This document shows, piece after piece, positions 7,464 to 52,492 of a DNA stretch of 64,000 nucleotides (position 1 is its first letter; the number at the start of each line of letters is the position of its first letter). Source of the DNA: a virus (Duplodnaviria > Caudoviricetes); IMG/VR virus record IMGVR_UViG_3300013121_000037, positions 32,001-96,000 of that record; one strand, 5' to 3'. The translations under genes and the position numbers were made by a program. The notes below the pieces were generated by a model that searched no databases, had not been told where the DNA came from, and saw only the letters and a program-made list of their open reading frames with translations.

Positions 7464-7589
7464 CGTCTCGTCTCCTCTGACAGATGCCTGCCAGAGTAGA
7501 CGAAAACGGAATCCAGTGAGAAATGCGGTCCGAGATGAGCACTGCGCAAAATGTAACTGTCTACTTTTGCGCAGTGCCAGTGGAATGGG

Positions 7590-21259: not shown

Positions 21260-21381
21260 AGAGAAACGGCGTGAATTTGTGGTTATTCATCACCCGCCTG
21301 TCCCATGATGAATACTGGCCATTTTACCAACTGGTGCTTGCCATGTCACACCGCACAAACTGCTGCGCAAAATGCTACTGT

Positions 21382-22119
21382 CTACTTTTGCGCAGTGGTT
21401 GGTTTATCCTGTCGGCACTGCGCACAGCAGACGTGGTCACCGAATACCAGATCGGCGCGGGGATAGTCCGCCCCACAATAACAGCAGTGTTCAATCTGCC
21501 CGTCCAGTCGCCAGAGTGCTGCCGCCACCCATTCCGGTGTGCGTCGGGAGCGGGACTCTGGCGAGAAACCGTACCACGTTTCCAGGTACATTTCGCACTG
21601 CCGCCGCAACTGACCGATTTCGTCCAGGGTCAGTTGATGCAGATTCACTGTTGCTGGAGAACACGCTGGAGTGGGTTGCTGGCGACCGCGGTCTTCAGGT
21701 GGGCGTTTGCTACCCGGTGGGTTGCGCCGGCCAAAGTCACCTTCGCTGCCATCGGTCTGCCAGGACTCGTGGTAGTAGGGTAAATCCGGGTCTGGCATCA
21801 TCAGGAGTCGCACAGGTGGCGTCCCCAGGATGGCCAGGTAACCAGCATGGTCATCAATCAGGATGTCGATATGGTGCTCCTGGCAGACCACCGCCTTGCA
21901 GCGTTCGCCATGAGTTTCGTAGTCGGCACAGATGACTTGCTGGGGCGGAACAGCAAACCCGTTATCGTGGCAGAAAGTGGTGGCTTTCTGGTGTGGCTTC
22001 ATGTCGCTGATAACGAACACCTCGAGCTCAGAGGAAAGCAGCAGGACTTGCACCAGCGGTCGGAAGATGTCCGGGTATTTGGACAGGCACCCGCCAATGT
22101 CGAAAGCAATCCGGGTCAT
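21382..22119 (-). CDS. HAD-superfamily-like protein
   Basis: RIAFDIGG and DILIDD motifs; bracketed by palindromes, with the stop inside palindrome 21362. Confidence 0.6.
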   Translation of the reverse strand: MTRIAFDIGGCLSKYPDIFRPLVQVLLLSSELEVFVISDMKPHQKATTFCHDNGFAVPPQQVICADYETHGERCKAVVCQEHHIDILIDDHAGYLAILGTPPVRLLMMPDPDLPYYHESWQTDGSEGDFGRRNPPGSKRPPEDRGRQQPTPACSPATVNLHQLTLDEIGQLRRQCEMYLETWYGFSPESRSRRTPEWVAAALWRLDGQIEHCCYCGADYPRADLVFGDHVCCAQCRQDKPTTAQK

Positions 22120-39070: not shown

Positions 39071-39127
39071 CAGCGCACCCTCCACGCAGTGGGCAAAATG
39101 TAACTGTCTACTTTTGCGCAATTGCGG

Positions 39128-49105: not shown

Positions 49106-49459
49106 TCAGCGCTGCTCCAGTTCTGCTGCCACCGCATCCCGTAACTTTGGCACGGCCACCACCCGCTCGGCGTAATCCCAGAAGTCCAGAAAACATCGCA
49201 GGTCCGGGTGCTCATCCAGGTAGGCAGCGAACAACCGTTCGCCCTCGGCCACGGACCCCTCCAGACCACCGTTGAGGCAATAGGCCACCGGGCAGCAATG
49301 CGTGGCCAAGTGGCCCCAGTACGCCTTGAATGGCGGTGGTGATACTGTGGCACCCTGCAAAATGTGTTCGGAGTCGTTGTCCAGTTCACGCAGCAAACTC
49401 TGGAGCACTTGGGTGCTGGTCTGCTGCATCACCTGCTGCCAGGAGTTTTTCCAGGTCAT
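49106..49459 (-). CDS. Hypothetical protein
   Basis: Coupled ORF; ILQGATVSPPP, FLDFWD. Confidence 0.55.
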   Translation of the reverse strand: MTWKNSWQQVMQQTSTQVLQSLLRELDNDSEHILQGATVSPPPFKAYWGHLATHCCPVAYCLNGGLEGSVAEGERLFAAYLDEHPDLRCFLDFWDYAERVVAVPKLRDAVAAELEQR

Positions 49460-49629
49460 TGCTTGTCCCCCAGCAACTCCTGCCGCAGGATCACCACCTC
49501 GGGCGGCGCCGTGACACCCAACCGCACCTTGTCCCGGTAAATGTCCACCACCTTGATTTCCACCAACTTGCCATCGGATAACTGGATGACAATTCCCTCA
49601 CCACCCAGCTTGCGTGAAAGTACCAGCAT
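49456..49629 (-). CDS. csrA: Carbon storage regulator CsrA-family RNA-binding protein (57 aa, below the ORF-track cutoff)
   Basis: MLVLSRKLGEGIVI..IKVVDIYRDKVRLGVTAPPEVVILRQEL; RBS ggagg. Confidence 0.85.
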   Translation of the reverse strand: MLVLSRKLGGEGIVIQLSDGKLVEIKVVDIYRDKVRLGVTAPPEVVILRQELLGDKQ

Positions 49630-50427
49630 GTAAAAACCTCCCTGTATGGGCGACGAATTAACAATTCTGGCTCACCGGGACTTGCACCCAGCGATACACT
49701 GCCTGATCTGGTGAAATGACAAAAAGCCCAGACTGGCAGCACACCAGAGTTTTTTCACAATTCCCACAATTCCCCTGTGTGAAAGATGAGGCGGGAACTG
49801 GCTTCCCATTCAGCACCAACACCACGGCACCACAATGTAGTTCCCGCCTCATGCGCTCGCGTTGACTCAGGTCACCGGCTGCGGATTGGTCCGCAGTTCC
49901 CAGGAGATATTCGCCAGGTGCGTCTTGGTACCCGACAGGCAAATCATGATATTTTCCAACTCACGCCGAATGGTGCTGGCGTACTCGTAGGTAACGCTAT
50001 CCGCAGTCTTCACGCTGGTGATGGAGTGAAACGCCTGCAGGGCGGCACTGTTGATCTTCTCCACCTCGACGCGAATCCCCTCCAGGTCCGCGTGCAACCG
50101 GTCACCTCGTTCGTCCTTGCTCATGGCATGGTTTCCTCGCAGGAGTTTCCCACTCTGCACCATATGCTGGTCCCGCTTCAATCTGCCGACTGCTGCTGAC
50201 ACAGGACTTCGATCTCGGCCAGTGAATCGTCAACCGCCGTCCAGTTACGTTCACAGAGCGCCCAGCGGGCACGCTCCACCAGTTTCCTGATCTGGGTTAG
50301 TACCTCGGGGCGCACTGCGGAACCTGCCGCCAGTGGCGGTTGTTGCTCATTGGTCATGTTGGTTATCTCTTTTTCCCGGTACTGGGCAAAACTCGACTGT
50401 CTACTTTTGCGCAGTGGTAGAAAATAA

Positions 50428-50571
50428 ACCCTGCCCTGCCGTGCCCAGCCGCGCCCAACCCAGCGATGCCGAACCTCGCCCGACCTCGCCTTGCTACGCC
50501 CGCCCAGCTTTGCCGAGCCAGGCCTCACCCTGCCGAGCCAGGCCTCACCTAGCCCAACCCGACCGTGACAC
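50428..50571 (-). ncRNA. NN-GGY pentamer array B (2 units of 14 pentamers), candidate guide RNA
   Basis: Strict 5-nt periodicity (RCCNN on +) with one 4-nt phase break at 50498-50501; begins just after the stop of 50577..51098. Confidence 0.75.
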
Positions 50572-50576
50572 GCTAA

Positions 50577-51098
50577 TTAAGAACTCTTTTCTTCCAACTG
50601 ATCCACGCGACTGGACAGGTTATCCAGAATGCGAGTGATTCCCGCTTGCTGGCGTGACAATCGCCGGGTCACCTCATACAGTTGGTTGTTGATTGTGGTC
50701 TGTGCGACATGGATAACACGCTCCTGTTCTGTCATCTCGTCCAGGCGTGCATTCTCCATCGTTTCCAGCGCCCATTTCATCTGCCGGTTGCCGCGCCGAG
50801 TCCTACTGTCAGCCAGTTCGCTGTGCTCGTTGGCTCTGGCCATCTTGTACCCGACATTGCGGATGTTGCGCAGCACGCGCTTGTGCTCACGTAACAAGCG
50901 GTGATTGGCGAGGGCAACCGATTGCTGCACCTCACGCTTGCTGTAACAGTGGTCGGTATTCTTCGACAACGCCACTGACAACTCATCGTAGGTGAACACC
51001 GTTCCCGGCACCGCTTCCTTCACCAGATCAATCAGCACGGTCGTGTTGCTCTGACCAGTATCGCGACCGATTTTGAATGTTGTTGCCATAATCCACAT
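50577..51098 (-). CDS. Accessory protein between the two GGY arrays (possible winged HTH plus coiled coil)
   Basis: FTYDELS..RNIRNVGYK wHTH-like pattern; RBS aggaaagg. Confidence 0.65.
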   Translation of the reverse strand: MWIMATTFKIGRDTGQSNTTVLIDLVKEAVPGTVFTYDELSVALSKNTDHCYSKREVQQSVALANHRLLREHKRVLRNIRNVGYKMARANEHSELADSRTRRGNRQMKWALETMENARLDEMTEQERVIHVAQTTINNQLYEVTRRLSRQQAGITRILDNLSSRVDQLEEKSS

Positions 51099-51114
51099 CC
51101 TTTCCTGTTGAAAA

Positions 51115-51145
51115 CCAGTGAGTAGAGCGTTGCTCTACTCACTGG
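51115..51145 (-). terminator. Intrinsic terminator or processing hairpin at the 3' end of array A
   Basis: Perfect 14-bp stem ccagtgagtagagc/gctctactcactgg, followed by TTTT on the minus strand. Confidence 0.7.
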
Positions 51146-51160
51146 CGTCTAAACATGCAG

Positions 51161-51465
51161 ACTTTGCCTAGCCTTGCCCCGCCCTGCCTCGCCCGGCCGT
51201 GCAGCGCCGAACTCTGCCGTGCCCGGTCGTGCCTGCCCTGCCAAGTCCCGCCGTGCCCGACCTAGCACTGCCCCGCTTTACCCCGCCGAGCCTGCCTCGC
51301 CCTGCCTCGCCCTGCCGAACCCGGCCTTGCCTGCCCTGCCGCGCCACACCGGGGCTGGCCGGGCCTCGCCCGGCAGCGCCTATCCTGGCCCAGTCGTGCC
51401 TGCCCTGCTGCGCCGCGCCGCGCCTAGCATCGCCAAGCCCTGCCGAACCGGACCTAACTACGCCT
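51161..51465 (-). ncRNA. NN-GGY pentamer array A (5 units of 12, 13, 7, 11 and 14 pentamers, each opened by AGGC), candidate guide RNA
   Basis: 57 phased pentamers; 4-nt gcct phase breaks at 51231, 51290, 51329, 51398, 51462; overlaps the stop of the RAMP-like gene. Confidence 0.8.
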
Positions 51466-52147
51466 GCTGTTCCATTTGCTCAAAAAACTCTCTTACATCC
51501 GCGATGGAATTGCCGATGGTGGCGTCACTGTCTCTGGTCTTTCTGACGTGGCCACGGAAAGCACCGTAACCGTTGACGCGGTTGTCGCCGATCCTCTCGG
51601 TCTGTCCGGCCAATTCGACGATTTTCACCAGTTCATCGAAATCAAGTCCAGCGTCTGGGATGAATACCGCTGGAACCACCAATGCCCACGGAAAGAACTG
51701 CGGTCGAACACGCATCACCCGCTTGCCACGGATGCCAACTGACAGGCGCGAAGCAAATGCTGGATTGGCCATCAACCGCGCGATTTCGTCGTCCAGATTA
51801 TTCACCTTGTCGCTTCCGTCGTAGATGAGAGCAACGTCCTGCTTGGTCATCAACAACGCTCGCTCAACTTGCTTGCCGAGTTTGTTGATTTTGCCAGTGT
51901 TTATCAAGCACTTGCGAACCTTGCTGCACGGTTGGCTAACAACAATGCCATTGCCGTTGACAGATGCCGTGTAAATGCCACCCAACCACTCCAACCGTTC
52001 GATCTGCTTCAGGTCGTCATCGGTCTTCTTTTTCTTCGAGGTGAACAACTTGATCTGCCGATTCACCTCATATTCAGGGTCTACCATTCGCGGGTTGTGG
52101 CAGAGCAACGGTGACTTCCCCAACAAAACAAACTCGATGTTGACCAT
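51458..52147 (-). CDS. Stand-alone Cas7/RAMP-like protein (Vipr-like)
   Basis: N-terminal strand plus LLGKSPLLCHN; RVMRVRPQF..W; C-terminal Gly-rich loop AGQTERIGDNRVNGYGAF; 229 aa; RBS gagga. Confidence 0.7.
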   Translation of the reverse strand: MVNIEFVLLGKSPLLCHNPRMVDPEYEVNRQIKLFTSKKKKTDDDLKQIERLEWLGGIYTASVNGNGIVVSQPCSKVRKCLINTGKINKLGKQVERALLMTKQDVALIYDGSDKVNNLDDEIARLMANPAFASRLSVGIRGKRVMRVRPQFFPWALVVPAVFIPDAGLDFDELVKIVELAGQTERIGDNRVNGYGAFRGHVRKTRDSDATIGNSIADVREFFEQMEQQA

Positions 52148-52492
52148 GCTTAATTCCTCGTATTGTGTTGGTGGTTCACTGGTCAAAACTCGACTGTCTA
52201 CTTTTGCGCAGTGGGTAAAAAAAACGGCAGTGATGGGTGTGCAACAACAAGTCGCACGCTAACAGGTGGTGCAACGAACCTCAGAATCACCACCACTGCC
52301 GTTGTTCTCAACGTGGCCTGCTGTTGTGCCCCACATGCCACTGCTGGCAATGTGGACACTGGTAGCAGTGCATGTGCCGGATACCGTCACTGTTGCGGTT
52401 GATAAGTCCCAGCAAATGTCGCTGGGCGCTCGCCTGATTGGCATGGGCGATCTTGCCGGTGCGGGTACACTTCGGCAGGGTGCGCAGGGTCA

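What the first reader, a model, noticed from the sequence alone, without database searches (positions are those of the whole stretch)
51161..51465. Decoded variable dinucleotides of array A give five distinct candidate guides
NN read 5'->3' on the minus strand. U1 (51461-51402): GT TA CC TC AG TT GA TA GC GC GC AG. U2 (51397-51333): AC TG CA TA GC CG GA CC CA CC GT GC AG. U3 (51328-51294): AA CG TC AG GA AG GA. U4 (51289-51235): TC GG AA GG AG TA CG AC GG TT AG. U5 (51230-51161): AC CG AC AG TC GC AC CG GA AG GG AA TA AA. The dinucleotides are diverse while the frame is rigid, unlike a slippage microsatellite. U1, U2 and U4 end in AG-GGC, and U2 and U5 begin AC-GAC, so terminal pentamers may be structural. 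Inference: a target read as NN-x-NN-x would skip every third base and could ignore codon wobble escape.
Basis: partly seen in the sequence, partly recalled or inferred. Interest (0 to 1): 0.85.

Follow-up and report, generated by a model that had tools for sequence, protein, structure and literature searches.

The report
Phage VIPR guide-RNA array, staggered type
The five-base rhythm after this phage gene is a real array of guide-RNA genes of the VIPR system, a CRISPR-like RNA-guided DNA silencer described in 2026; the letters were decoded correctly, but no target was found for any of the guides.

Summary
Observation confirmed. On the minus strand, 51161-51465 holds 57 phased pentamers (NN + GGC/GGT; 43 of 57 triplets are exact GGY). 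They form five blocks of 12, 13, 7, 11 and 14, separated by four 4-nt AGGC register slips.

It is not a new kind of system. The gene that ends where the array starts matches the solved SUSP1 Vipr protein (PDB 36pp, E 2.4e-13). It keeps the GGY-contacting residues and folds like Csm3/Cas7. A vap1-like gene and a second array follow. The -1 slip matches the 'staggered vrRNA arrays' with 1-nt overlap in the VIPR preprint (fig. S18 legend).

In the closest relative (Vipr 81% identical) the GGC frame, the AGGC slips and the end hairpin are kept, while the dinucleotides all differ.

No target was found. I searched the phage itself, relatives' loci, IMG/VR (exact 10-dinucleotide windows), one metagenome scan (chance-level hits only) and 251 to 401 planctomycete genomes.

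U3 is shorter than the published 9-16 repeats. The 'AC-GAC' start is not conserved in relatives.

This scan has already noted VIPR-like arrays 182 times, in at least 152 genomes. Verdict: new member of a known kind, modest interest.

The parts
52194..52210 (-). Copy of the phage's repeated intergenic motif (TGCGCAAAAGTAGACAG, part of a ~35-nt conserved block), about 45 nt upstream of the vipr start. Likely the promoter or operator site that opens the module.
   Evidence: 41 copies in the window against 0.13 expected. The sequence context is shared with the copy after array B.
51458..52147 (-). vipr gene (229 aa from ATG 52147; the mechanical ORF of 242 aa starts at TTG 52186).
   Evidence: phmmer hit to PDB 36pp_D 'SUSP1 Vipr protein', E 2.4e-13, residues 16-211 against 5-186. 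phrog_4652, E 3e-30. 604 homologues. AF2 model pLDDT 91.9. All top Foldseek hits are Csm3/Cas7.
51402..51466 (-). Array A unit U1: 12 listed pentamers plus CA-GGC, which overlaps the last vipr codons.
51333..51401 (-). AGGC slip (51398-51401) plus unit U2, 13 pentamers.
51294..51332 (-). AGGC slip (51329-51332) plus unit U3, 7 pentamers, all exact GGY. Shorter than published vrRNAs.
51235..51293 (-). AGGC slip (51290-51293) plus unit U4, 11 pentamers.
51161..51234 (-). AGGC slip (51231-51234) plus unit U5, 14 pentamers. The last one (AA-agt) is degenerate.
51110..51146 (-). 15-bp hairpin followed by UUUU. Reads as an intrinsic-terminator-like cap of array A.
   Evidence: MFE -29.9 kcal/mol, z -5.8. 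A hairpin at the same place in relative L019 has a different stem interior but keeps the pairing.
50577..51089 (-). vap-like accessory gene (170 aa from ATG 51089).
   Evidence: phrog_5926, E 2e-11. 39% identical to the gene after vipr in L003. Profile against the gene after vipr in Felixounavirus wV8: hhalign probability 80.8%, E 1.3e-5, 120 columns.
50428..50564 (-). Array B: two units (13 and 14 pentamers) separated by a GGGC slip. The first unit holds a 20-nt internal duplication.
50397..50413 (-). Second exact copy of the intergenic motif, closing the module.

Best explanation
Array A is a 'staggered' array of vrRNA (VIPR guide RNA) genes in an uncultivated phage.

Inferred by homology to the SUSP1 and P. 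fulva systems:
1. The module vipr - array A - hairpin - vap - array B is transcribed on the minus strand.
2. Vipr protomers bind the RNA one per pentamer. They hold each GGY and present the two following bases.
3. Each filament then pairs its NN letters with double-stranded DNA, skipping one target base per dinucleotide, and silences transcription of a competing mobile element.

Inferred, and not shown anywhere: the 4-nt GGC-A-GGC slip, where the last G of one unit is the first G of the next GGC, breaks the 5-nt register and so sets the borders of the five guides.

Shown here: the sequence anatomy, the family membership of the protein, conservation of frame and slips, and turnover of NN among relatives.

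Not shown: expression, processing, or any target.
For: - Protein family: Vipr homology to the solved SUSP1 Vipr, E 2.4e-13.
- Contact residues: read from that alignment, the residues named as contacts in 10.64898/2026.04.26.720927 are kept. H17, K33, K82, G87-K88, R138, D177 and R179 are identical, and R39 is K. Most are invariant or nearly invariant in 20 clade members.
- Fold: confident model with Csm3/Cas7 as top structural matches.
- Accessory gene: vap1-like.
- Array: periodicity far above chance, and only two arrays in the 112-kb record, both beside vipr and vap and on their strand.
- Relatives: 13 related loci carry the same NN-GGC arrays. AGGC is the slip in 85 of 97 cases, and unit lengths peak at 9-11.
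- Closest relative: frame, slips and hairpin kept, NN different.
- Literature: the slip matches the published description of staggered arrays with 1-nt overlap.
- Context: phage (terminase, clamp, helicases, Erf) with no Cas1.
Against: - No target was found for any guide in any search.
- 25% of triplets deviate from GGY, and U3 is short.
- SUSP1 W178, which stacks on G2, is N in this whole clade, and the Y-pocket residues E71/M72 are S/K. RNA reading may therefore differ in detail.
- There is no 3' tail or pseudoknot after each unit, unlike the tested type II systems.
- According to the preprint's text, staggered arrays were the one architecture not confirmed by small-RNA sequencing.
- NN turnover among relatives is also what neutral spacers would show.
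Confidence: 0.85

Rival explanations
1. The array is a Vipr-binding RNA whose NN letters carry no information. It would act as a scaffold, sponge or autoregulatory 3'UTR, like the GAG/UAG triplets with 2-3 nt spacers bound by the TRAP ring. This was my own first reading.
For: - No target was found.
- NN divergence among relatives is equally expected for unconstrained spacers.
- Array A sits between vipr and vap in front of a terminator hairpin, a place where an attenuator could act.
- NN composition fits no codon frame better than a uniform model.
Against: - In the homologous SUSP1 and P. fulva systems, NN changes reprogram targeting in vivo and in vitro.
- The contact residues that hold GGY and present NN are conserved here.
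- Punctuation into units of 9-13 matches vrRNA lengths, which a plain sponge would not need.
Confidence: 0.07
2. The array is a decaying remnant of a VIPR array that no longer makes working guides.
For: 14 of 57 triplets are not GGY. U3 is short. No targets were found.
Against: - vipr and vap are intact, and their functional residues are conserved.
- The preprint reports frequent internal degeneracy in working vrRNAs.
- The register is kept across 300 nt, and indels would quickly destroy it without selection.
Confidence: 0.06
3. The array is a slippage microsatellite or a Gly/Arg-rich coding stretch (the 59-aa ORF 51168-51347).
For: Open frames exist on both strands in this G+C-rich tract.
Against: A 5-nt period is incompatible with a reading frame. 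All 16 dinucleotides occur at NN, unlike slippage repeats. TRF finds only short local repeats.
Confidence: 0.01

Closest known systems
Type II VIPR of Escherichia phage SUSP1 (Vipr + vap1 + vrRNAs; bioRxiv 10.64898/2026.04.26.720920, .720927, 2026.10.15.759431; PDB 36pp)
   Same: - Homologous Vipr protein with conserved GGY-contact residues.
- A vap1-like neighbouring gene.
- A phage-borne two-gene module.
- GGY/NN pentamer repeats of about 9-16 per unit, on the gene strand.
   Different: - About 29% identity only.
- W178 is N.
- There is no pseudoknot tail after each guide.
- Guides abut one another with a -1 register slip.
- One array lies between vipr and vap.
- The host is probably a planctomycete, not an enterobacterium.
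'Staggered vrRNA arrays' of VIPR systems (same preprint, fig. S18 legend)
   Same: Individual vrRNAs start at positions that overlap by 1 nt, so the end of one marks the start of the next. This is exactly the GGC-AG|GC slip seen four times in array A.
   Different: Only the legend could be read. The figure, the type assignment and the locus list were not available, so whether this clade is among the 667 catalogued systems is unknown.
Class 1 CRISPR Cas7 (Csm3/Cmr4) filaments on crRNA
   Same: RAMP fold with G-loop and thumb. One protomer sits on each fixed RNA step, with periodic interruption of the guide-target duplex.
   Different: - No CRISPR repeats and no Cas1.
- 5-nt step with 3 bases withheld, instead of a 6-nt step with 1 base flipped.
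- The guide is made of repeats rather than a contiguous spacer.
TRAP-RNA recognition in Bacillus (from established knowledge)
   Same: A protein oligomer reads about 11 conserved triplets separated by 2-3 free nucleotides.
   Different: The protein fold is unrelated. In TRAP the spacers carry no information, whereas in VIPR they are the code.

Membership tests
VIPR system | Vipr protein: a minimal RAMP (RRM core, G-loop, thumb) homologous to known Viprs | tested here: met
   PDB 36pp_D SUSP1 Vipr, E 2.4e-13, near full length. AF2 pLDDT 91.9. Top 40+ Foldseek hits are Csm3/Cas7 chains, E down to 2.8e-5.
VIPR system | Residues that hold GGY and the DNA strands (SUSP1 H17, K33, R39, K82, K88, R138, D177, W178, R179) | tested here: met
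   Read from the alignment against the residues named. H, K, K(for R39), K, K, R, D and R are kept, and only W178 is N. G-loop IGDNRVNGYG and R148-P149 are invariant in 20 clade members.
VIPR system | Adjacent array of YNNGG/GGYNN tandem repeats (at least 4 units; vrRNAs of 9-16 repeats) on the vipr strand | tested here: met
   57 phased pentamers in blocks of 12, 13, 7, 11 and 14, starting at the vipr stop codon. U3 alone is below 9.
VIPR system | GGY conserved and NN hypervariable among related loci | tested here: met
   L019 (Vipr 81% identical) keeps the frame, slips and hairpin but has a different NN set. 13 related loci share the frame.
VIPR system | vap accessory gene; viral context; no cas adaptation genes or CRISPR array | tested here: met
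   vap1-like gene. Phage genes present. IMG/VR virus record. No Cas1. No CRISPR-like repeats.
VIPR system | Natural targets that match NN under the 1-nt skip rule | tested here: inconclusive
   No match above shuffles in the phage or in relatives' loci. No exact 10-NN matches in IMG/VR. The metagenome hits extend at chance level. Large collections could only be scanned for exact matches.
VIPR system | vrRNAs expressed, processed and bound by Vipr | not testable with these tools
   No sequencing run holding this DNA was listed.
Type II VIPR (SUSP1 / P. fulva architecture) | Each repeat tract is followed by a conserved structured 3' tail (a pseudoknot in the SUSP1 clade) | tested here: not met
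   Units abut through a 4-nt slip with no spacer sequence. The only structure is a single hairpin after U5. No Rfam match.
Staggered vrRNA array (fig. S18 of the preprint) | Successive vrRNAs derive from positions overlapping by 1 nt within one continuous array | tested here: met
   Four GGC-A-GGC junctions in array A. AGGC accounts for 85 of 97 slips across 14 loci.

The most novel reading that the evidence does not exclude
In this tail-less subtype, guide borders would be set by neither an RNA structure nor a ribozyme. They would be set by the -1 register slip itself: GGC-A-GGC interrupts the 5-nt Vipr filament, so the protein measures out its own guides from one long 3'UTR precursor. Array A, placed between vipr and vap and closed by a terminator hairpin, might also couple guide production to vap expression. 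The preprints describe staggered arrays but, by their text, did not confirm them by small-RNA sequencing.
Probability: 0.35. Interest if true: 0.45.

Novelty: new member of a known kind. Interest (0 to 1): 0.28.

Why it matters
It adds a well-delimited, probably planctomycete-phage example of the least-tested VIPR architecture: staggered, tail-less arrays. The module has clear borders, a conserved boundary signal (GGC-A-GGC after an A-rich dinucleotide) and two layouts within one clade, with or without an array between vipr and vap. That makes it a compact construct (about 1.8 kb) for testing how guide ends are made without a tail or ribozyme. It does not change what is known about the recognition code, and its targets remain unknown.

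Tried and rejected
- **My first reading** was a TRAP-like protein-binding RNA with meaningless spacers. I demoted it after the literature and PDB hits.
- **Self-targeting.** The best gap-1 match in the 112-kb record was U5 at 21/28, against a shuffle maximum of 20. That is below the 80% criterion. All other guides were within the shuffles. Gap 3 only finds the array itself.
- **Our guides against 100 kb of relatives' loci** at gaps 0-2: nothing above shuffles, except B2 at 20/28 against a shuffle maximum of 19 at both gap 0 and gap 1, which is not specific.
- **Relatives' guides against our phage:** nothing.
- **IMG/VR exact 1-nt-skip scans** of 10-dinucleotide windows for U1, U2 (two windows), U4, U5 (two windows) and B2: 0 hits each.
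- **Metagenome scan, U5 window:** 3 contigs, 2 of them independent. Only 1-2 of the 8 flanking NN letters match, which is the chance level. The shared peptide in the wobble frame follows from the pattern itself.
- **Up to 3 mismatches:** U2 in 251 genomes of the Gemmataceae MAG's family, U5 in 401 genomes of its class, and U2 and U5 in five related IMG/VR records: not found in those searched.
- **NN composition against codon-frame dinucleotide models:** no model beats a uniform one, so the test is uninformative.
- **Two further 'arrays'** called by my loose parser elsewhere in the record are GGT-rich coding sequence, not arrays.
- **Rfam:** no family.
- **Sequencing runs:** none was listed, and no RNA holder was listed.
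- **Supplementary tables of the preprint** are not held, so the VIPR type and catalogue membership could not be checked.
- **U3 and B1** were not scanned in the large collections. U3 has only 14 specified bases.

Full report
**What is in the sequence.**
- Read on the minus strand, 51161-51466 is a continuous run of five-base units. Each unit is two variable letters followed by GGC or GGT.
The four gaps between them each read AGGC.
- 43 of 57 triplets are exact GGY. The 14 exceptions are mostly single-letter variants (tgc, agc, gac, gcc, gga) plus three agt.
- The tract holds 47 GGY with 30 pairs at lag 5. In 1000 shuffles the mean was 2.1 and the maximum 7.
- In the whole 112,344-base record, only this tract and a second one at 50428-50564 show such density, on either strand.
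- All 16 dinucleotides occur at the NN positions. It is therefore not a slippage repeat, and a 5-nt period cannot be a reading frame.

**Surroundings.**
- The window is part of an IMG/VR virus record, 79% complete by CheckV. It carries a large terminase subunit, sliding clamp, helicases, an Erf-like protein and a CsrA-like regulator.
- The array begins inside the last codons of a 229-aa gene (52147-51458).
- About 15 nt after U5 comes a 15-bp hairpin followed by UUUU (51110-51146; MFE -29.9 kcal/mol, z -5.8).
- A 170-aa gene (51089-50577) follows, then array B: two units of 13 and 14 pentamers separated by a GGGC slip.
- The module is bracketed by two exact copies of a 17-nt motif (52194-52210 and 50397-50413). 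That motif occurs 41 times in the window against 0.13 expected. The module therefore looks like one self-contained transcription unit.

**What it is.**
- A note from the first stage used the word 'VIPR-like'. A literature search found three 2026 preprints describing Viral Interference Programmable Repeat systems.
- According to them, a small RAMP protein (Vipr) polymerises on vrRNAs made of 9-16 GGY/NN repeats. The NN letters pair with double-stranded DNA while one target base per dinucleotide is skipped. That skipped base is usually the codon wobble position. The complex silences competing phages and satellites.
- The 229-aa protein matches the deposited SUSP1 Vipr chain (PDB 36pp_D) at E 2.4e-13 over nearly its full length.
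- I counted positions along that alignment. Every residue the structural paper names falls on the stated residue type in the SUSP1 row, which validates the count.
- At those positions the window protein keeps H17, K33, K82, G87-K88, R138, D177 and R179. R39 is K. Only W178 is replaced, by N. The Y-pocket pair E71/M72 is S/K.
- These positions are invariant or nearly invariant in 20 clade members.
- An AlphaFold model (pLDDT 91.9) finds only Csm3/Cas7 chains at the top of a PDB fold search.
- The downstream gene is 39% identical to the gene after vipr in relative L003.
- As a profile, that gene aligns with the gene after vipr in Felixounavirus wV8, a relative of SUSP1: hhalign probability 80.8%, E 1.3e-5. 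It is therefore vap1-like.
- No Cas1 is present in the record.

**The phase breaks.**
- The preprint's fig. S18 legend describes 'staggered vrRNA arrays' in which individual vrRNAs derive from positions overlapping by 1 nt, so that the end of one marks the start of the next.
- In GGY-NN framing, each junction here reads ...GGC-AG|GC-NN.... The G of the last dinucleotide is also the first G of the next GGC.
- Across 14 loci of this clade the slip is AGGC in 85 of 97 cases. The dinucleotide before it is A-rich (AA 28, AG 17, AT 13, GA 13). Unit lengths between slips peak at 9-11.
- 'AC-GAC' starts are particular to this phage. The two junctions that carry them share a 21-nt stretch with one mismatch, which suggests a duplication.

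**Relatives.**
- The protein has 604 homologues in the large protein collection.
- Related loci from IMG/VR, from MAGs labelled Gemmataceae, Phycisphaerae, Competibacteraceae and others, and from Logan contigs all carry the same kind of array on the vipr strand.
- The closest relative, L019 (Vipr 81% identical), has the same layout: vipr - array - hairpin - vap - array. It keeps the GGC frame, the AGGC slips and the hairpin, whose stem differs inside but still pairs. Its dinucleotides and unit lengths are different.
- Other relatives (L002, L003, L021) have vipr and vap adjacent and arrays only after vap.
I note that turnover alone does not separate guides from free spacers.

- In the phage's own record no guide matches above shuffled versions at gap 0, 1 or 2. 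The best is U5 at gap 1 with 21/28, against a shuffle maximum of 20, which is below 80%. Gap 3 recovers only the array itself. The absence of self-targets agrees with the preprint's control.
- There are no matches in 100 kb of relatives' loci, and no relatives' guide matches this phage.
- Seven exact 1-nt-skip scans of IMG/VR with 10-dinucleotide windows gave nothing.
- One metagenome scan (U5) gave two independent hits. Their flanking NN letters match at chance level, 1-2 of 8.
- With up to three mismatches, U2 and U5 were not found in 251 and 401 planctomycete genomes, nor in five related virus records.
- The large collections could only be searched for exact matches, so targets with a few mismatches would be missed. 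The outcome is inconclusive, not negative.

**Mechanism and confidence.**
- Shown here: the anatomy, the protein family, conservation of the frame and slips, and NN turnover.
- Inferred by homology: one Vipr per pentamer, GGY sequestered, NN presented, 1-nt-skip pairing with DNA, and transcriptional silencing aided by Vap.
- Inferred without any experiment, here or in the preprints: the register slip delimits the guides.
- I put 0.85 on 'a VIPR staggered vrRNA array that encodes guides'. The remainder goes to an information-free Vipr-binding RNA, a decaying array, or (negligibly) a coding or slippage artefact.

**Novelty.**
- The class, the code, the wobble argument and even the staggered layout are in print.
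- This scan has already recorded 182 VIPR-like findings in at least 152 genomes, some of them with staggered arrays.
- This is a new member of a known kind. Its modest value is as a compact test case for tail-less guide processing.

Noticed in passing
window-wide, e.g. 7557-7573, 21378-21394, 39104-39120, 50397-50413, 52194-52210: A 17-nt motif, TGCGCAAAAGTAGACAG, occurs 41 times with up to 3 mismatches (0.13 expected). It is mostly intergenic and often appears as overlapping plus/minus pairs 14 nt apart, i.e. a ~31-bp palindrome. Likely a phage-specific promoter or operator that delimits gene cassettes.
   Followed up: partly
window 49456-49629 (-); L021 2099-2296: A CsrA-like regulator gene (phrog_9500, E 1e-8) lies about 0.8 kb downstream of the VIPR module. 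In relative L021 a CsrA gene lies just upstream of vipr. Possibly a coincidence of phage early regions.
   Followed up: no
window 50511-50549 (-): The first unit of array B contains a perfect 20-nt tandem duplication, so the dinucleotide run GA CT TC AG/AA appears twice. This points to growth of units by duplication in multiples of the 5-nt period.
   Followed up: no
L010, L011, L012 (three contigs of one Competibacteraceae MAG): One MAG carries three separate vipr-vap loci with identical-scoring Vipr matches. Their long staggered arrays differ, with up to about 19 slip-delimited units, many of only 1-2 pentamers.
   Followed up: no
L022 450-478; L023 1041-1069: The two independent metagenome matches to the U5 core both lie in open frames where the skipped base is codon position 3, and both encode PLSRVA(E/D)LVR. 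The peptide follows from the pattern, and the flanks match at chance level, so I read these as chance hits.
   Followed up: yes
L021 533-778: A DUF1580 (PF07618) gene lies near the VIPR module of a relative. The best genome hit for Vipr is a Gemmataceae MAG (61% identity). Both are weak hints of a planctomycete host.
   Followed up: no
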